DNA from: a bacterium
GTDB taxonomy: Bacteria > Patescibacteriota > Microgenomatia > UBA1400 > UBA12108
Direction: 5' to 3'
Length of the DNA: 64,000 nucleotides
Assembly: GCA_037133595.1 (NCBI GenBank)
Contig: JBAXNV010000001.1
Coordinates: 30,479 to 94,478, forward strand
This document shows positions 28,697 through 34,723 of the stretch, in pieces. Both the position numbers and the translations under genes were made by a program. Each line of letters begins with the position of its first letter. The stretch's first letter is position 1. Below the pieces are notes generated by a model, which was not told the DNA's origin, made no database searches, and saw nothing but the letters and a program-made list of their open reading frames with translations.

Positions 28697-29790
28697 ATAG
28701 TTCTATTAACATATTCTGTGTAACTTGCAATAATTTTGACTACTTTTTGTGCCAAATGATCGACATCATAATCTTTAACAACGCCAATCTGACCAATTTG
28801 GCTCGTAACAATTTTTATAGAATTTAACACATTTTCTTTTTTTAACCCACTCATAATCAGCGTACCTTCATCCATGCCCTCTGGTCTTTCATGTGCTTGT
28901 CTAATCGTAATAGCAGGAAAAACTAACAGTGACGACTCTTCGGTAATAGTGCCGCTATCGGAGATCACACAGAAAGCATTTTGTTGCAATTTAATATAAT
29001 CAAAAAAACCAAAAGGTTTACTTATTCTGATTAATTCGTGCAACTCAATATTTTTCTCTATTAACAACTTTTGCGTTCTAGGATGACAGGAAAAAATTAT
29101 TGGCATCCTATATTGTTCACAAATTGCATTAAGTGAATTAACTAAGTCAGTAAAGTTACTCCAATTATCAATATTTTCCTCGCGATGTACGCTTAAAACA
29201 AAGTATTTTTTTGCTGTCAAATCTAGTTTTGTCAAAATTTCACTCTTCTCAATTAGTTTGCTATTTTCTCTAAGTACTTCTTTCATGCTCGAACCAACCT
29301 TGATAATAGTTTCTGGCCTAATACCTTCGGTAATTAGATATCTCCTAGCGTGTTCTGTAATTGTTAAATTAATGTCGCTTAAATGGTCAATAATTTTTCT
29401 GTTGATTTCTTCTGGCACTCTTTGGTCAAAACATCTATTGCCAGCTTCCATGTGAAAAATTGGAATTCTATTTCTTTTAGCAGAAATTACAGATAAGCAA
29501 GAATTGGTGTCCCCGTAAACAAGTAAAGCATCAGGTGTATTTTGTTTAAACAACTCGTCTGATTTACTAATAATATTGCCGATTGTCTCGGCAGTCGTTT
29601 TGCCCGTTGAGTTCATGAAATAATCTGGTTTTCTGATGCCCAATTCTTCAAAAAAAATCTCATTTAATTCATAGTCATAATTCTGACCAGTGTGAACTAA
29701 AATATGCTCGGTATACAAATCCAATTCTTTAATCACCTGCGACAACTTGATAATTTCTGGTCTTGTGCCAACAATGGTCATGACTTTCAT
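28681..29790 (-). CDS. UDP-N-acetylglucosamine 2-epimerase (non-hydrolysing), WecB/FnlC/Cap5G family
   Basis: MKVMTIVGTRPEIIKL...HTGQNYD...; family-specific N-terminal signature. Confidence 0.8.
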   Translation of the reverse strand: MKVMTIVGTRPEIIKLSQVIKELDLYTEHILVHTGQNYDYELNEIFFEELGIRKPDYFMNSTGKTTAETIGNIISKSDELFKQNTPDALLVYGDTNSCLSVISAKRNRIPIFHMEAGNRCFDQRVPEEINRKIIDHLSDINLTITEHARRYLITEGIRPETIIKVGSSMKEVLRENSKLIEKSEILTKLDLTAKKYFVLSVHREENIDNWSNFTDLVNSLNAICEQYRMPIIFSCHPRTQKLLIEKNIELHELIRISKPFGFFDYIKLQQNAFCVISDSGTITEESSLLVFPAITIRQAHERPEGMDEGTLIMSGLKKENVLNSIKIVTSQIGQIGVVKDYDVDHLAQKVVKIIASYTEYVNRTIWTKL

Positions 29791-29828
29791 ATTATTCTCC
29801 CAAAGATAATTTTTGATAAAACTTAAAT

Positions 29829-30857
29829 CTATTTTTCCAATTCATTCTGAATGTAATCGAGTGATTTCAATTTTTCAACAACCTCGTCGACGGTCAGTCG
29901 CTTGGTGTTATGAGAGGTATAATCCTCTTCCTTAGATATGTTCTTGTCTCCTACGCTAAAGTATTTTGAATAATTAAGGTCGCGGTTATCTGCTGGTATC
30001 CGGAAAAAATCTCCCAGATCCTCTGCCTTGGCCATTTCTTCGCGGTTAACAAGCGATTCAAATAATTTTTCACCATGTCTAGATCCGATAATTTTTAAGT
30101 TATTTTTTGCTTTAAAAATTATCAAAAGCGCCTTGGCCAAATCAAGGATAGTAGAGGCAGGTGCTTTTTGAACAAAAATATCCCCACCCAGTGCATGTTC
30201 ATAAGCATAAAGCACTAATTTAACAGATTCGTCAAGTGACATAAGAAATCTAGTCATGTCAGGATCGGTGACGGTAATATCCTTATTCTCTTTTATTTGT
30301 TTGATAAATAATGGAATAACTGATCCTCTAGATGCCATAACATTCCCGTATCGTGTAGCACAAAATATTGTTTTGCCGGGATTAGTGTTGCGGGATTTAG
30401 CCAGCATAAGTTTCTCCATCATTGCTTTCGACATTCCCATGGCATTAATGGGGTACACGGCTTTGTCAGTACTCAAGACGATAACTTTTTCTACATTATT
30501 GTGCTCTGCGGCATTCAATACGTTGTCTGCACCCAATATGTTTGTTCTTACTGCTTCCATCGGGAAAAATTCACACGAAGGAACCTGCTTAAGGGCTGCG
30601 GCGTGGAATACAAAGTTTACACCTCTCATTGCGTTATCAATTGTTTCCAGGTTCCTAACATCACCAATAATAAATTTAACTCTCATATCAGCAATTTCTA
30701 TTCTCATTTTCTCTTGTTTTTCTTCATCTCTACTAAAAATCCTAATTTCACCAATATCAGTATTATCCAAAAAATGTCGTAGCATTTTGTTGCCGAATGA
30801 ACCAGTACCACCAGTGATAAGAAGTGTTTTATTTTTAAAACTTATTGTTTTTTGCAT
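29829..30857 (-). CDS. UDP-GlcNAc 4,6-dehydratase, CapD/FnlA/PseB family
   Basis: LLITGGTGSFGN Rossmann motif; 342 aa; polysaccharide biosynthesis protein CapD-like. Confidence 0.8.
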   Translation of the reverse strand: MQKTISFKNKTLLITGGTGSFGNKMLRHFLDNTDIGEIRIFSRDEEKQEKMRIEIADMRVKFIIGDVRNLETIDNAMRGVNFVFHAAALKQVPSCEFFPMEAVRTNILGADNVLNAAEHNNVEKVIVLSTDKAVYPINAMGMSKAMMEKLMLAKSRNTNPGKTIFCATRYGNVMASRGSVIPLFIKQIKENKDITVTDPDMTRFLMSLDESVKLVLYAYEHALGGDIFVQKAPASTILDLAKALLIIFKAKNNLKIIGSRHGEKLFESLVNREEMAKAEDLGDFFRIPADNRDLNYSKYFSVGDKNISKEEDYTSHNTKRLTVDEVVEKLKSLDYIQNELEK

Positions 30858-31752
30858 ATTGATCTCGATTATGTTTATAAAATTCTGAACCTAAAAAATC
30901 ATTATACATGTCAAAGATTAGTTTATTCCAGCTAGGCACATCATAATCAATAGATATCTTAAACTTGTCCGAATCAAGAGATCTATCAATTTCAATAGAT
31001 TCATCAGCACTTATAATAATTTTCTTCTGGTATATTTCCGCAACGATGGTAAGTAAATCATGTTTTGAAATTGGTCGAGCAGAAATGTGATGAAGTCCGA
31101 AAAGTTTATCATTGGGAATTATTTTATTTATCAACAATCTGGAAAATTCCAGCGTAGTCAACCCGGAGAATATTGCCTTTTTGTAACCTTTAACCGTAGC
31201 TTCTTGGCTCAAAAACCAGTTTATAAGGCTGATATTCGAACTTAGTTCATGTCCAATAATAGATGTTCGTAGAGTAAGAGTATTGGTACGATCGCTTACT
31301 TCACCCAAATACTTGGTCATACCATACACGTCATGACATGTGGGTTCATCATCTTCGTGGTAATTACCAGATTTACCATCAAACACACAATCAGTGGCTA
31401 TGGTAATAAATCTACAGTTATTTTTTTCACACAACTCTGAAACGAGGTGGGGGAATAACGCATTAATCTCTATACAATCTCTTATATTACTAGACTTATT
31501 CTGTTTGATGATGCCAATACAATTTATTACTATATCTGGATGAAGTGATTTAATTATACTTTCTACAGTATCTATCTTGTTGGCATAAACCCCATCAAAT
31601 ATTTTTAGATCAAAAATATTGGGTAATAGGCCAGCAAAGCTATTTTTGCTGGTAACAGTTCCATATACATCAAATTCTCGATTTTTTGACAAGGTTTCAA
31701 ATACTTTGTGACCTAACATTCCGCTCGCGCCAAGGACAATAATTCTTTTCAT
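30835..31752 (-). CDS. NAD(P)-dependent sugar-nucleotide reductase/epimerase (RmlD substrate-binding-like; FnlB-like role)
   Basis: MKRIIVLGASGMLG Rossmann N-terminus; operonic with the dehydratase and 2-epimerase. Confidence 0.55.
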   Translation of the reverse strand: MKRIIVLGASGMLGHKVFETLSKNREFDVYGTVTSKNSFAGLLPNIFDLKIFDGVYANKIDTVESIIKSLHPDIVINCIGIIKQNKSSNIRDCIEINALFPHLVSELCEKNNCRFITIATDCVFDGKSGNYHEDDEPTCHDVYGMTKYLGEVSDRTNTLTLRTSIIGHELSSNISLINWFLSQEATVKGYKKAIFSGLTTLEFSRLLINKIIPNDKLFGLHHISARPISKHDLLTIVAEIYQKKIIISADESIEIDRSLDSDKFKISIDYDVPSWNKLIFDMYNDFLGSEFYKHNRDQYAKNNKF

Positions 31753-31835: not shown

Positions 31836-32444
31836 ATGGCTCAGATCAGCTTTCCATCAGACGACAATATCACTTACCTTTTTCTCGACTGGGGCGAGCT
31901 CGGCGCTCTTACCCAGGTACTAGCTACCAAGATCTTAGATTCTGGCGCTGCTCCATATGATCGTATCATAGCGCTTGCAACAGGCGGCCAGACGATGAGC
32001 AAAGCCATTAAGGATTATCTCAATATCCAAAATAGTAGCAGTATGCATATCTCTTTTTACACCGGTATTGGCACAACCAACAAAACTCCCGTTATCACCC
32101 AGTCAATAGCCACCGATCTGCAGGGTGAGCGCGTGCTTGTGTTCGACGATGTCAACGACACTGGGGCAACTCTCGAAGTAGCCAAGGCATATCTCCAAAT
32201 GCGAGGGGTCAAGAGTATCGACACCGCGTGTCTTTTGCAAAAGCCCCGCACCAAATGCCCTTCAACTTTCTTTGGCGACAGTACCGAGAGCTGGATTATC
32301 TTTCCCGATGAGGTAAGAGAAACCATCACCCTTCTTAGCTCTCGCTGGAGCAAGCAGGGGGTAAGTAAGCAAGATATCCACTCTCGCCTCAACCAGATCG
32401 GGTTTCTCGACTCACATCTAACGCTTATTGAGAACTATTCGTAA
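31836..32444 (+). CDS. phosphoribosyltransferase (type I PRTase) family protein
   Basis: VLVFDDVNDTGATL PRPP-binding motif. Confidence 0.5.
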   Translation: MAQISFPSDDNITYLFLDWGELGALTQVLATKILDSGAAPYDRIIALATGGQTMSKAIKDYLNIQNSSSMHISFYTGIGTTNKTPVITQSIATDLQGERVLVFDDVNDTGATLEVAKAYLQMRGVKSIDTACLLQKPRTKCPSTFFGDSTESWIIFPDEVRETITLLSSRWSKQGVSKQDIHSRLNQIGFLDSHLTLIENYS

Positions 32445-32447
32445 CAT

Positions 32448-33110
32448 CTATCCTGTTTTGGTAAGGTCGAGCTTCTTTACTACCAAGGTAATACTTGATT
32501 TGGCTTCTTCCCAATCAATATTCTGGTGCATTCTAGGCATTGGTTCGTGGTCTGCATCCTCAAAATAAACGAGCGATTTGAGGATGTGGGGGAGGTTGTA
32601 ATCAATATTTGGGTATTTATCTGGTAGATAATCGAGCAAGTCATTGAGCTTATATGTCTTGAGGATGGCGTACAGGTCTATAAAATCTTTTTTACTACCG
32701 CGCATACCAATTGTTTGAAGCTTGGTAAGAGCGACATCGAGAACAGAGCTAAGCAGAATGCTATCATATGGAACAAAATCAGACAATAAAGGGTAAGGAT
32801 AACCCAAGAATTGGACTTTTACTCCACGAATGTAGCAATTAAGCGTACTGTTGCCCAAAGTCGTGTTGGTTAGTGGGCCCAATACAGAAAGCTCATTCTG
32901 CAAAACAATGGGGTCAAAGTCGACAGAGCTAAAAAAATCCAAATCTTCTGACTCTCGATGACCAAGTTGAAGCGAAAGTGCAGTCCCACCCGATAAATAA
33001 AAGTTCTGTAAGAAAGAAGGTTTGCTAGACTGGATCTGCTCCAATAACCGGGCCGTACTGGGCGGTAATGTGTCTGGGAATAGTTGGTTCATGGCAAGTA
33101 CACCTTCCAA
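32448..33110 (-). CDS. nucleotidyltransferase AbiEii/AbiGii-type toxin (DUF1814), type IV TA / abortive infection
   Basis: SGGTALSLQLGHRESEDLDFF matches the AbiEii GGTAL...R.S.D(I/L)DF signature. Confidence 0.6.
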   Translation of the reverse strand: MEGVLAMNQLFPDTLPPSTARLLEQIQSSKPSFLQNFYLSGGTALSLQLGHRESEDLDFFSSVDFDPIVLQNELSVLGPLTNTTLGNSTLNCYIRGVKVQFLGYPYPLLSDFVPYDSILLSSVLDVALTKLQTIGMRGSKKDFIDLYAILKTYKLNDLLDYLPDKYPNIDYNLPHILKSLVYFEDADHEPMPRMHQNIDWEEAKSSITLVVKKLDLTKTG

Positions 33111-33319
33111 AAATTGGCAGACTTCTTGCTCAACTTAAACTTGTCTAGTCTTTGCCTAATTGAATCTATTCTTGTTTTACCAAATAGCCAGACGAGTGCC
33201 GATCTGTCACCTCGATCGAGGAGAGTTTGCGTTATGTAATTTTCGTGTTTTTCCCAAGAAAGATCACCCAAATCATCCCCCCAAAAAAATCTCGCTATGT
33301 TTTTAGGTAATCCAGACAC
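33089..33319 (-). CDS. small protein overlapping the AbiEii gene by 22 nt; candidate cognate antitoxin or partner
   Basis: 76 aa; translationally coupled upstream of the nucleotidyltransferase; no motif recognised. Confidence 0.3.
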   Translation of the reverse strand: MSGLPKNIARFFWGDDLGDLSWEKHENYITQTLLDRGDRSALVWLFGKTRIDSIRQRLDKFKLSKKSANFWKVYLP

Positions 33320-33364
33320 CTACATATTATATCAAGTTTTTACCCATACTGGCAGCTTGCAATC

Positions 33365-34723
33365 ATGTACAATTACCTCATGCAAACACTACTTGTTGCC
33401 GCACTTGCCCTACTACTACGCATTCCTTTTCTCTCCCAATCTCTCTGGCTCGACGAGGCGATAGAGGCACTCGCTCTTCAGGGCAAAATGGGCCCCCTCC
33501 TCACCTACGCTCTTGCCGATTTTCAGCCACCTCTTTATCACGGCCTGCTCTATGTATGGACTCAGCTTGTTGGAACGAGCGAAGTGGCGCTACGCCTCCC
33601 CTCGCTACTTGCTGGGGTAGGGGTGGTAGTTGTCGGGCTCAAGCTGGCCGAGTTGTTGGCTGGCAAAAGGGCAGGGCTCATTGTGGGGCTACTTCTTGCA
33701 ACCAATCCTCTTCTTATCTACTACTCGGTAGAAGGCAGAACATACATGCTCACCACCTTCTTTGTCACTCTTTCGTTTTACTGCCTTTTTCGCTTGCTTC
33801 AAAATGCTAGTAAATCTCTCTCGCTCCTATACATGCTTGCAACAATCGGCATTGTCTGGACAAGCTATCTAGGTGCTCTGATTGTTGTGCTACAGGGTCT
33901 TTATCTCCTCGTCAACAAAAAGTGGTCACTTATTCTCCCGCTCGCACTTGGTGCTGGTACGATCGTCTTTTGGCTACCATCTTTTGTAAAGTCACTCGGG
34001 GTCGGGGGCACCAATCTAGCAACAAGCCCCATGTGGGCGAGTGTTGTTGGGCAGTTTAGCTGGAAGTCGCTCCCACTCACGTGGGTCAAGTTTGTGTTGG
34101 GTAGGATTTCGTTTGATAACAAATTAATTTATGCTGGGGTTGTTGGCCTCGTTGGGCTTTTGCATTTGTATATATTAAAAGGCTTTGTTCCAAAGCTCAA
34201 AGTTCCAAGTTCCAAGCTTCTGCTGCTTTGGCTTGTCGGCCCCGTCGTTCTTGGCCTAGTAATTACCAACTTTATCCCGGTCTATCAGTTCTTTCGCGTG
34301 CTCTTTGTCCTCCCAGCGTATTTTATGTTGTTGGGGCTAGCACTCTCTAATAGGCCTAGTAAGATCACAATCTACGCACTTGTTGCCACTCAACTCATCT
34401 TTCTCGGAGTTTACGCATTTTCTCCCCGCTTTCATCACGAAGACTGGCGAGCGCTTGTGGCAACCTATGGGGAAAACGCCACCTACGCGCTACCTAGTAT
34501 CGAACAAAACGCTCCACTACTATATTATGGCGTAGCAAGAGCCAGCATGCTTGAGCCCAAGGTAGGTATTGGTACAGCTTCAAATCAAATCGTCTACATT
34601 CGCTATGCCGAAGAAGTATTTGATGCCGGTGGGGTTGGGCGTGCCAATCTGCTCTCAAGTGGGTATACTAAGCTAAGCGAGCAAGTATTCTCAGGTCTTG
34701 CCACAGAGGTCTACGCAAAATGA
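33365..34723 (+). CDS. GT-C glycosyltransferase, ArnT/PMT-like (GT39/GT83)
   Basis: LWLDEAIEA DE motif in the first loop; more than 10 TM helices. Confidence 0.6.
   Translation: MYNYLMQTLLVAALALLLRIPFLSQSLWLDEAIEALALQGKMGPLLTYALADFQPPLYHGLLYVWTQLVGTSEVALRLPSLLAGVGVVVVGLKLAELLAGKRAGLIVGLLLATNPLLIYYSVEGRTYMLTTFFVTLSFYCLFRLLQNASKSLSLLYMLATIGIVWTSYLGALIVVLQGLYLLVNKKWSLILPLALGAGTIVFWLPSFVKSLGVGGTNLATSPMWASVVGQFSWKSLPLTWVKFVLGRISFDNKLIYAGVVGLVGLLHLYILKGFVPKLKVPSSKLLLLWLVGPVVLGLVITNFIPVYQFFRVLFVLPAYFMLLGLALSNRPSKITIYALVATQLIFLGVYAFSPRFHHEDWRALVATYGENATYALPSIEQNAPLLYYGVARASMLEPKVGIGTASNQIVYIRYAEEVFDAGGVGRANLLSSGYTKLSEQVFSGLATEVYAK

What the first reader, a model, noticed from the sequence alone, without database searches (positions are those of the whole stretch)
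32448..33319. AbiEii-type nucleotidyltransferase toxin with a non-canonical 76-aa upstream partner
The 220-aa protein carries the AbiEii/DUF1814 GGTAL...R.S.DLDFF nucleotidyltransferase signature. Its upstream partner overlaps it by 22 nt, is only 76 aa, and lacks an obvious AbiEi-type winged helix of normal length. The pair is wedged between a PRTase gene and the second GT mega-operon. This may be a minimal type IV TA or abortive-infection module with a novel short antitoxin.
Basis: partly seen in the sequence, partly recalled or inferred. Interest (0 to 1): 0.5.

Follow-up and report, generated by a model that had tools for sequence, protein, structure and literature searches.

The report
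AbiEii/MenT-type toxin with DUF6922 partner
This is a two-gene toxin-antitoxin-like cassette: a MenT/AbiEii-family nucleotidyltransferase toxin preceded by a 76-residue all-helical DUF6922 protein that replaces the usual AbiEi antitoxin; the pairing is very widespread, mainly in metagenome-assembled genomes labelled Patescibacteria, but has not been studied experimentally.

Summary

The 76-aa upstream gene is real and conserved. It belongs to Pfam DUF6922, not AbiEi. Its model is a compact five-helix bundle with no solved relative and no wHTH.

The 22-nt overlap comes from taking the longest ORF. The family-consistent start gives a 4-nt ATGA overlap.

The pairing is near-obligate. 76 of 78 toxin homologues with upstream sequence have DUF6922 directly upstream. 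54 of 67 DUF6922-anchored loci have a full toxin, and the rest have degraded or missing toxins. An intact toxin never lacks a small upstream gene, which is the asymmetry expected of a toxin-antitoxin pair.

Some relatives carry an N-terminal HTH region before DUF6922, as AbiEi carries a wHTH before its neutralising domain. A -10 box lies 6-8 nt before the start codon in 86 of 114 homologues, which suggests a leaderless, self-promoted cassette.

I read it as a DUF1814 toxin-antitoxin module with a third, uncharacterised antitoxin class. It is a new variant of a known kind, not unique to this genome, and of moderate interest.

The parts
33326..33355 (-). Promoter-like element: -35 CTGCCA (33355-33350), 18-nt spacer, extended -10 TGaTATAAT (TATAAT = 33331-33326). 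It ends 6 nt before the GTG start codon, so the transcript is probably leaderless.
   Evidence: The consensus scan scores 10 of 12 with a TG motif; the sequence is. The same -10-to-start spacing of 6-8 nt occurs in 86 of 114 homologous DUF6922 genes, against 47 of 461 control ORFs. A Shine-Dalgarno-like motif occurs in only 12 of 114.
33089..33319 (-). Gene for the 76-aa DUF6922 protein, the putative antitoxin. GTG start, basic (pI 9.8), predicted five-helix bundle.
   Evidence: It is identical to NCBI WCL07_00315. PF21956 gives 24.8 bits on the window protein, and the window protein and all 59 homologues aligned with it match PF21956 at E<=1. AF2 pLDDT is 89.6. No PDB fold relative was found. 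It is linked to AbiEii in homologous loci.
33089..33092 (-). ATGA stop/start overlap between the antitoxin and toxin genes, suggesting translational coupling.
   Evidence: Sequence. This is the modal arrangement in 44 of 125 homologous pairs.
32448..33092 (-). Gene for the 214-aa AbiEii/DUF1814 (MenT-like) nucleotidyltransferase, the putative toxin. Acidic (pI 4.9). The longest ORF extends to TTG 33110.
32937..32990 (-). Codons for motifs I and II: G35 G36 ... R46-E-S48-E-D50-L-D52. These are the metal-binding DxD and the Ser at the position of the MenT/AbiEii phospho-acceptor.
   Evidence: G36, R46, S48, D50 and D52 are invariant in 120 distinct full-length homologues, and G35 in 115. The pattern R-x-[ST]-x-D-x-D matches AbiEii R63/T65/D67/D69 (PMC3985639; bioRxiv 10.64898/2026.01.19.700257).
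32676..32723 (-). Codons for motifs III and IV: K124-LQTIGM-R131 and K135-D136-F-I-D139.
   Evidence: K124, R131, D136 and D139 are invariant in 120 homologues. The motif definitions KLxAaxxR and +DxxD come from PMC3985639. The K124-to-D139 spacing of 15 residues equals that of MenT1 K137 to D152 (PMC10435456).

Best explanation
A self-contained two-gene toxin-antitoxin cassette of the DUF1814 (AbiEii/MenT) superfamily, in which the usual AbiEi antitoxin is replaced by a small DUF6922 protein.

Shown here:
- The downstream protein has the AbiEii/MenT fold and every catalytic motif.
- The upstream 76-aa protein is a conserved, confidently folded five-helix bundle unrelated to AbiEi or MenA1.
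- The two genes are almost always adjacent, antitoxin first, and usually overlap at stop/start.
- A -10 box lies 6-8 nt before the first start codon in most homologues.
- Intact DUF6922 genes occur beside degraded or missing toxins, but intact toxins do not occur without a small upstream gene.

Inferred:
- The mRNA is leaderless and the toxin is translationally coupled to the antitoxin.
- By analogy with MenT1/3/4 and AbiEii, the toxin adds nucleotides to the 3' ends of tRNA acceptor stems and arrests translation.
- The basic DUF6922 protein binds the acidic toxin directly and neutralises it. It could do so by occluding the active site (type II-like) and/or by pushing the invariant Ser48 loop toward the bound NTP so that the toxin phosphorylates itself (type VII-like, as for MenA1-MenT1 and AbiEi-AbiEii).
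- In this short form no DNA-binding domain is present, so classical antitoxin autorepression is unlikely. Relatives with an N-terminal HTH-type region before DUF6922 would supply that function.
For: Toxin identity:
- Pfam AbiEii at 50.4 bits against a cut-off of 22.5.
- Motif residues G36, R46, S48, D50, D52, K124, R131, D136 and D139 are invariant in 120 distinct homologues.

Partner:
- DUF6922 matches in the window protein and all 59 aligned homologues.
- 944 clusters at 50% identity, mostly standalone proteins of 75-120 aa.
- AF2 pLDDT 89.6, five helices.

Linkage:
- 76 of 78 toxin-anchored metagenome hits with room upstream have DUF6922 directly upstream. The other two have a different small overlapping ORF.
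- Of 67 DUF6922-anchored genome loci, 54 have a full toxin, about 6 a degraded toxin and about 4 none; a further toxin-less copy lies in L016, which also has a full pair. One orphan sits between nusG and rplK.
- Neighbourhoods vary, and some loci carry two pairs side by side.

Domain logic:
- P0280 (183 aa) has DUF6922 at its C-terminus after an N-terminal region with sub-threshold HTH hits, and sits directly upstream of a 206-aa AbiEii.
- P0346 has a strong HTH_17 hit (60.1 bits) followed by DUF6922.
- This parallels AbiEi, whose wHTH precedes a C-terminal domain that alone gives antitoxicity (PMC3985639).

Expression and charge:
- ATGA overlap is the modal arrangement.
- The -10 box lies 6-8 nt from the start codon in 86 of 114 homologues, against 47 of 461 control ORFs.
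- pI is 9.8 for the partner and 4.9 for the toxin; family medians are 9.2 and 5.9.

Precedent:
- A 68-aa antitoxin without a DNA-binding domain neutralises MenT1 and induces its phosphorylation (PMC10435456, PMC11375011).
- The phospho-acceptor is not needed for catalysis in MenT1 or AbiEii (bioRxiv 10.64898/2026.01.19.700257). Invariance of Ser48 therefore fits a regulatory role.
Against: - Nothing here tests toxicity, neutralisation, binding or phosphorylation. All of these rest on comparison and analogy.
- No complex prediction could be run.
- The charges are the reverse of the classical type II pattern: the small protein is basic and the toxin acidic. A basic helical protein could equally be a nucleic-acid-binding cofactor.
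- MenT4 carries the family fold but is not phosphorylated with its antitoxin (PMC11375011), so Ser48 conservation does not prove type VII control.
- No phage, plasmid or defence-island association was found for this subfamily, so an Abi role is unsupported.
- No presence/absence polymorphism could be shown for this particular locus. Only the same genome was recovered.
Confidence: 0.62

Rival explanations
1. A canonical AbiE (AbiEi-AbiEii, COG5340-COG2253) abortive-infection system in which the antitoxin gene is simply truncated or mis-called.
For: The toxin matches PF08843 and weakly matches PADLOC AbiEii models (E 4e-4 to 2e-2). The gene order is antitoxin first.
Against: The 76-aa length is the family norm, not a truncation; the median is 77 aa over 125 pairs. 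No AbiEi_1-4 hit appears at E<=1 in the window protein or its 59 aligned homologues, and there is no PADLOC AbiEi hit. The fold is all-alpha, with no wHTH and no resemblance to AbiEi 6y8q or Rv2827c 1zel. Those two structures do appear as hits of the toxin model instead. Only 45 nt separate the GTG from the divergent PMT_2 gene, so there is no room for a longer N-terminus.
Confidence: 0.03
2. Not a toxin-antitoxin pair. DUF6922 is a positive accessory subunit, for example a basic RNA- or substrate-binding specificity factor, of a two-subunit nucleotidyltransferase with a housekeeping or RNA-repair role.
For: The partner is basic (pI 9.8, family median 9.2) while the enzyme is acidic. The tight co-occurrence and translational coupling would also fit an obligate heterodimeric enzyme. 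The cassette sits among housekeeping genes, with no link to mobile elements or phages.
Against: Intact DUF6922 genes persist beside deleted or frameshifted enzymes or alone in about 10 of 67 loci, whereas the enzyme is never found intact without a small upstream gene. That asymmetry is expected for an antidote, not a cofactor. The distribution is patchy, the neighbourhoods are variable, and tandem or duplicated pairs occur. HTH-type N-terminal extensions mirror antitoxin architecture. Every characterised relative of the enzyme is a growth-arresting toxin (PMC7450476, PMC10435456).
Confidence: 0.12
3. A toxin-antitoxin or defence module in which DUF6922 acts chiefly as a transcriptional repressor or as a phage sensor, and the toxin is controlled without direct protein contact (the original 'type IV' reading).
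For: The protein is small, basic and helical. The promoter overlaps the gene start, so a repressor binding at -10/-35 is conceivable. L. lactis AbiE needs both proteins for defence, which suggested a sensor role for the antitoxin (bioRxiv 10.64898/2026.01.19.700257).
Confidence: 0.13

Closest known systems
MenA1-MenT1 (Rv0078B-Rv0078A) of Mycobacterium tuberculosis
AbiEi-AbiEii (Streptococcus agalactiae / Lactococcus AbiE; COG5340-COG2253) and MenA3/4-MenT3/4
   Same: The same toxin superfamily and Pfam family, with all four motifs. A bicistronic operon with the antitoxin first. The domain logic is similar, since HTH-DUF6922 relatives parallel the wHTH plus C-terminal domain of AbiEi (PMC3985639).
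   Different: The toxin is about 80 residues shorter (214 aa against 290-292-residue MenT3/MenT4 chains). The G-to-DxD spacing is 13 residues, against the 15 reported for AbiEii (PMC3985639). The partner lacks both the wHTH and the AbiEi C-terminal domain. PADLOC would not call an AbiE system, because it finds no AbiEi.
JHP933 of Helicobacter pylori (PDB 4ok0), a DUF1814 nucleotidyltransferase
   Different: I did not examine whether JHP933 has a DUF6922-like partner. The sequence similarity is not significant.
Pfam PF21956 (DUF6922)
   Same: The 76-aa protein and all its homologues fall in this family.
   Different: The window protein scores just below the gathering score of model version .1 (24.8 against 27). 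The family has no assigned function, and no paper in the searched library mentions it.

Membership tests
AbiEii / DUF1814 nucleotidyltransferase toxins (PF08843) | Pfam PF08843 match above the gathering score | tested here: met
   50.4 bits against a cut-off of 22.5.
AbiEii / DUF1814 nucleotidyltransferase toxins (PF08843) | Motifs I and II: hG[G/S] ... R..DhD, the pol-beta catalytic core with a family-specific Arg (PMC3985639) | tested here: met
   G35 G36 ... R46 E S48 E D50 L D52. G36, R46, D50 and D52 are invariant in 120 homologues and G35 in 115. The spacing is 13 residues, against 15 reported for AbiEii.
AbiEii / DUF1814 nucleotidyltransferase toxins (PF08843) | Motif III (K flanked by hydrophobic residues, K..(7)..R) and motif IV (+DxxD) (PMC3985639) | tested here: met
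   K124-LQTIGM-R131 and K135-D136-F-I-D139. K124, R131, D136 and D139 are invariant in 120 homologues.
AbiEii / DUF1814 nucleotidyltransferase toxins (PF08843) | MenT/JHP933-type bi-lobed NTase fold | tested here: met
   [not shown]
AbiEii / DUF1814 nucleotidyltransferase toxins (PF08843) | Growth inhibition through NTP-dependent modification of tRNA 3' ends | not testable with these tools
   Requires expression and in vitro nucleotide-transfer assays.
AbiE system (AbiEi + AbiEii; COG5340-COG2253) | [quoted passage not shown] | tested here: not met
   [not shown]
AbiE system (AbiEi + AbiEii; COG5340-COG2253) | Bicistronic operon with the antitoxin gene first | tested here: met
   Same strand, ATGA overlap.
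MenAT1-type (MenA1 short antitoxin) | Antitoxin homologous to MenA1 (Rv0078B) | tested here: not met
   [not shown]
DUF6922 (PF21956) | Match to the Pfam model | tested here: met
   The window protein scores 24.8 bits against GA 27 with model .1, so it is marginal on its own. However, the database's precomputed PF21956.2 assignment includes it. It and all 59 aligned homologues match at E<=1, with a best E of 1.8e-12. Of the 10 longer family members scanned, the 9 non-repetitive ones reach the PF21956 gathering score; P0264 does not.
Toxin-antitoxin module (generic) | Conserved adjacent pair in variable neighbourhoods, with antidote-without-toxin occurring but not toxin-without-antidote | tested here: met
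   76 of 78 toxins have DUF6922 upstream, and the other 2 have another small ORF. Of 67 DUF6922-anchored loci, 54 have a full toxin, about 6 a degraded toxin and about 4 none. Contexts vary.
Toxin-antitoxin module (generic) | Toxicity of the toxin alone and rescue by the cognate antitoxin | not testable with these tools
   Needs a co-expression assay.
Type VII (antitoxin-induced auto-phosphorylation) DUF1814 systems | Ser/Thr phospho-acceptor two residues before the first Asp of DxD | tested here: met
   S48 in R-E-S-E-D-L-D is invariant in 120 homologues. It corresponds by pattern to AbiEii T65 and MenT1 T39 (bioRxiv 10.64898/2026.01.19.700257; PMC10435456). MenT3 S78 is reported to be structurally equivalent (PMC11375011), but I did not inspect its local sequence. 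I did no structural superposition.
Type VII (antitoxin-induced auto-phosphorylation) DUF1814 systems | Toxin becomes phosphorylated in the presence of the antitoxin | not testable with these tools
   Needs intact-mass MS or Phos-tag analysis of co-expressed proteins.

The most novel reading that the evidence does not exclude
DUF6922 is a third, structurally unprecedented class of DUF1814 antitoxin, alongside AbiEi/COG5340 (with COG4861) and MenA1. On this reading it neutralises a minimal MenT-like tRNA nucleotidyltransferase by inducing auto-phosphorylation of the invariant Ser48. It would be expressed from a portable, leaderless, self-promoted cassette, and would be the main MenT-type module in genomes labelled Patescibacteria. 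Antitoxin-induced toxin auto-phosphorylation would then be fold-independent and far more widespread than the mycobacterial and streptococcal cases.
Probability: 0.3. Interest if true: 0.6.

Novelty: new variant of a known kind. Interest (0 to 1): 0.42.

Why it matters
DUF1814/MenT toxins are an active research topic: tRNA 3'-end modification, and the recently proposed antitoxin-induced auto-phosphorylation. That work rests on a few systems from M. tuberculosis and Streptococcus, with two unrelated antitoxin types.

This locus represents a very large, untested subfamily: more than 7,400 toxin homologues and about 944 antitoxin clusters. Its toxin is minimal and its antitoxin fold is again different.

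If DUF6922 also triggers Ser48 phosphorylation, the mechanism would be a general property of the toxin fold, independent of the antitoxin. If it acts only by sequestration, it gives a clean contrast.

The finding also assigns a likely role to a Pfam DUF. It shows that AbiE detection rules such as PADLOC, which expect AbiEi, would miss this class, which is found mainly in small-genome lineages labelled Patescibacteria.

It is not a new kind of system, and the locus in this window is an ordinary member of its subfamily.

Tried and rejected
- Canonical AbiEi partner: rejected.
- SdhE/CptB antitoxin, the name JGI gives to one DUF6922 member (P0155): rejected. No Sdh5 hit in the window protein or its 59 aligned homologues, and no SdhE fold hit.
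- Sequence relatives with solved structures: none significant for either protein, by phmmer or by profile. The best toxin profile hit was JHP933 at E 0.21.
- Phage or plasmid carriage: no relatives in IMG/VR and no PHROGs hits. No DUF6922 on PLSDB plasmids. Only four distant toxin hits on plasmids.
- The Aquifex aeolicus plasmid ece1 homologue has an overlapping 82-aa upstream ORF, but it is not detectably DUF6922. hhalign gave only a weak C-terminal resemblance, as it did for the small ORFs of L114 and L145.
- Presence/absence polymorphism at this locus: only the same genome was recovered through the PRTase neighbour, so this remains untested.
- NCBIfam: no hit for either protein.
- Rfam and tRNA scans of the window: nothing.
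- Intrinsic terminator or operator-like inverted repeats near the promoter: none convincing.
- Literature: no paper in the searched library mentions DUF6922, and none describes this pairing.
- Complex (multimer) prediction was not possible with the tools.

Full report
**1. What is in the sequence**

Both ORFs lie on the minus strand. The longer one runs 32448..33110, giving 220 aa from a TTG. The shorter runs 33089..33319, giving 76 aa from a GTG. The flanks are a phosphoribosyltransferase gene (31836..32444, +; its stop lies 3 nt from the toxin stop, convergent) and a PMT_2-type glycosyltransferase gene (33365..34723, +; divergent, 45 nt away) followed by GT4 genes. Exact matches in the protein collection (P0006, 214 aa, 'nucleotidyl transferase AbiEii/AbiGii toxin family protein'; P0001, 76 aa, hypothetical protein WCL07_00315) place the window in a 95.6-kb MAG contig labelled only 'bacterium'.

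The called toxin start is ATG 33092. This agrees with the N-termini of the family (M..F.P.TLP). It makes the junction ATGA, a 4-nt stop/start overlap, rather than the 22 nt obtained from the longest ORF. Among 125 homologous pairs, ATGA/GTGA is the commonest arrangement (44). A second class has a 52-nt overlap (21). Most of the rest lie between -11 and +1 nt.

**2. The toxin**

The protein passes Pfam AbiEii/DUF1814 at 50.4 bits against a cut-off of 22.5. It gives weak PADLOC AbiEii hits, no NCBIfam hit and no significant PDB sequence hit, even with a family profile. The best profile hit among DUF1814 structures is JHP933 (4ok0) at E 0.21, and the motifs align.

All four motifs defined for the family (PMC3985639) are present:
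- G35-G36
- R46-E-S48-E-D50-L-D52
- K124...R131
- K135-D136-F-I-D139

In 120 distinct full-length homologues of this subfamily (sampled at about 40-62% identity to the window protein), G36, R46, S48, D50, D52, K124, R131, D136 and D139 are invariant.

S48 occupies the R-x-[S/T]-x-D-x-D position of AbiEii T65. The same [S/T]-x-D relation holds for MenT1 T39/D41, and MenT3 S78 is reported to be the structural equivalent. These are the residues that become phosphorylated when the cognate antitoxin is present (PMC11375011; bioRxiv 10.64898/2026.01.19.700257). That correspondence is by motif pattern only; I did not superpose structures. The gene is full-length and looks functional.

**3. The 76-aa partner**

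It is a real gene. The word-limited searches found 5 and then 541 homologues. A full HMM search of 1.84 billion cluster representatives found 944 clusters at E<=1e-3. Fifteen positions are invariant across the window protein and 59 homologues at 42-57% identity to it.

It belongs to Pfam DUF6922 (PF21956). The window protein itself scores just below the gathering score of model version .1 (24.8 against 27). However, it and all 59 aligned homologues match the family, and none matches any AbiEi family or Sdh5 at E<=1.

The protein is basic (pI 9.8; family median 9.2), and the toxin is acidic (4.9; median 5.9). No paper in the searchable library mentions DUF6922.

**4. Linkage**

Gene contexts of toxin homologues show a DUF6922 gene of 76-85 aa directly upstream. 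The neighbourhoods are unrelated, and some loci carry two pairs back to back.

Systematic counts:
- Starting from DUF6922 (67 GTDB-species genome loci; labels mostly Patescibacteria lineages, plus Anaerolineae and a few others): 54 have a full-length toxin immediately downstream, about 6 have a frameshifted or N-terminally deleted toxin remnant, about 4 have none, and 3-4 are cut by the locus end. A further toxin-less DUF6922 copy lies in L016, which also has a full pair.
- One orphan lies between nusG and rplK.
- Starting from the toxin (80 metagenome loci, 82 hits): 76 of the 78 hits with upstream sequence available have DUF6922 directly upstream. The remaining two are divergent second copies, each with a different small overlapping upstream ORF.

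So the small gene can outlive the enzyme, but the enzyme is not found intact without a small upstream gene. This is the asymmetry expected of a toxin and its antidote.

A few family members have DUF6922 at the C-terminus of a longer protein. P0346 has a strong HTH_17 hit (60.1 bits). P0280 has only sub-threshold HTH_11/DeoR hits, but it sits directly upstream of a 206-aa AbiEii. This mirrors AbiEi, where a wHTH precedes a C-terminal domain that is sufficient for antitoxicity (PMC3985639). It argues that DUF6922 is the neutralising module, not the DNA-binding one.

**5. Expression signals**

In the window, a -35 CTGCCA and an extended -10 TGaTATAAT end 6 nt before the GTG. There is no Shine-Dalgarno motif.

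Across 114 homologous DUF6922 genes, 106 have a -10-like hexamer matching at least 5 of 6 positions within 40 nt. The gap to the start codon is 6-8 nt in 86 of them (exactly 6 in 58). Only 12 have an SD-like motif. Among 461 other ORFs of at least 150 aa in the same loci, 47 (10%) have a -10 at 6-8 nt.

The cassette thus appears to carry its own promoter and to produce a leaderless mRNA. Leaderless transcripts are known to predominate among M. tuberculosis toxin-antitoxin systems (PMC3898074, PMC8485053). This is inferred from sequence, not from mapped 5' ends.

No terminator-like site was found.

The cassette's GC content is about 40-43%, below that of the adjacent genes at 47-53%. That is a mild hint of separate origin.

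**6. Mechanism**

The best-supported reading is a DUF1814 toxin-antitoxin module. By homology with MenT1/3/4 and AbiEii, the toxin would add nucleotides to tRNA acceptor ends and block translation (PMC7450476, PMC10435456, the 2026 preprint). DUF6922 would bind it directly. It would neutralise the toxin by occlusion and/or by inducing Ser48 auto-phosphorylation.

The phospho-acceptor is dispensable for catalysis in MenT1 and AbiEii. Its absolute conservation here therefore fits a regulatory role, although MenT4 shows that the mechanism is not universal. None of this was tested functionally.

Rivals:
- A cofactor subunit. The basic pI favours it; the orphan and degraded-toxin asymmetry and the HTH-type extensions disfavour it.
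- A repressor or sensor without direct contact. No DNA-binding fold was found, and the non-contact model has been overturned for AbiE itself.
- A mis-called canonical AbiE system. Rejected.

**7. Comparison and novelty**

- The toxin is a member of the AbiEii/DUF1814 family; every testable feature is met.
- The system is not a member of AbiE as defined by an AbiEi/COG5340 antitoxin. That feature was tested and not met.
- It works most like MenAT1, a short toxin with a short antitoxin that has no DNA-binding domain. It is not homologous to MenAT1 on the antitoxin side.
- The partner family is catalogued (DUF6922) but has no function assigned and no mention in the library searched.
- The locus in this window is an ordinary, intact member of a very large subfamily.

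I rate it a new variant of a known kind, of moderate interest. The value lies in the family-level inference: a third antitoxin class, a leaderless cassette, and prevalence in genomes labelled Patescibacteria. This particular locus is not special.

**8. Limits**

- No multimer prediction, no structural superposition and no experimental data.
- No presence/absence comparison at this locus; only the same genome was retrieved.
- The taxon labels of many MAG records, such as 'uncultured Pseudomonadales', were not verified.
- The literature search covers open-access papers and bioRxiv only.

Noticed in passing
window 33317-33355 (-), and loci L009-L155: A conserved TATAAT box lies 6-8 nt before the DUF6922 start codon in 86 of 114 homologues, against 10% of control ORFs. 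SD-like motifs are rare (12 of 114). The cassette probably makes a leaderless mRNA from its own promoter.
   Followed up: partly
L070 2980-3234 (+): An orphan 84-aa DUF6922 gene with no toxin sits between nusG and rplK/rplA in a conserved ribosomal-protein region. Other toxin-less DUF6922 copies occur in L016 (second copy), L017, L043 and L048. Toxin remnants with N-terminal deletions or frameshifts occur in L029, L033, L050, L059, L065 and L075.
   Followed up: partly
L005 2771-4596 (also L006-L008): Two DUF6922-AbiEii pairs lie tail to tail. The second pair (85 aa + 202 aa) is only about 25-30% identical to the window proteins.
   Followed up: no
L158 2501-3621; 21 of 125 pairs: One subclass of pairs has a 52-nt overlap between the antitoxin and toxin genes instead of ATGA. 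It includes P0280 (183 aa, DUF6922 preceded by an N-terminal region with sub-threshold HTH hits) upstream of a 206-aa AbiEii.
   Followed up: no
L161 957-1761 (Aquifex aeolicus VF5 plasmid ece1, NC_001880.1): A 206-aa AbiEii homologue (35% identity) has an overlapping 82-aa upstream hypothetical protein. That protein is not detectably DUF6922 but ends in a similar '...K..aFWkl.L' stretch. A CopG gene and MazE/PIN genes lie nearby.
   Followed up: partly
window 29000-31700: A low-GC block (30-38% GC) carries minus-strand sugar-nucleotide epimerase/dehydratase-type genes. From about 31800 onwards GC is 45-53%. The toxin-antitoxin cassette itself is about 40-43%. This may reflect a mosaic origin of the glycan gene clusters.
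   Followed up: no
L156 4613-5530 (ENA assembly of the same genome): The gene caller used for the ENA assembly missed the 76-aa GTG-start gene entirely and left a 270-nt 'intergenic' gap. Small leaderless GTG-start antitoxin genes like this are likely under-annotated.
   Followed up: no
P0155; record titles: JGI names one DUF6922 member 'succinate dehydrogenase flavin-adding protein (antitoxin of CptAB)', which Pfam scans and fold search do not support. Many MAG records carrying the pair are labelled 'uncultured Pseudomonadales/Gammaproteobacteria'. One isolate name contains 'PATE', so these labels may be unreliable.
   Followed up: partly
[not shown]
   Followed up: no
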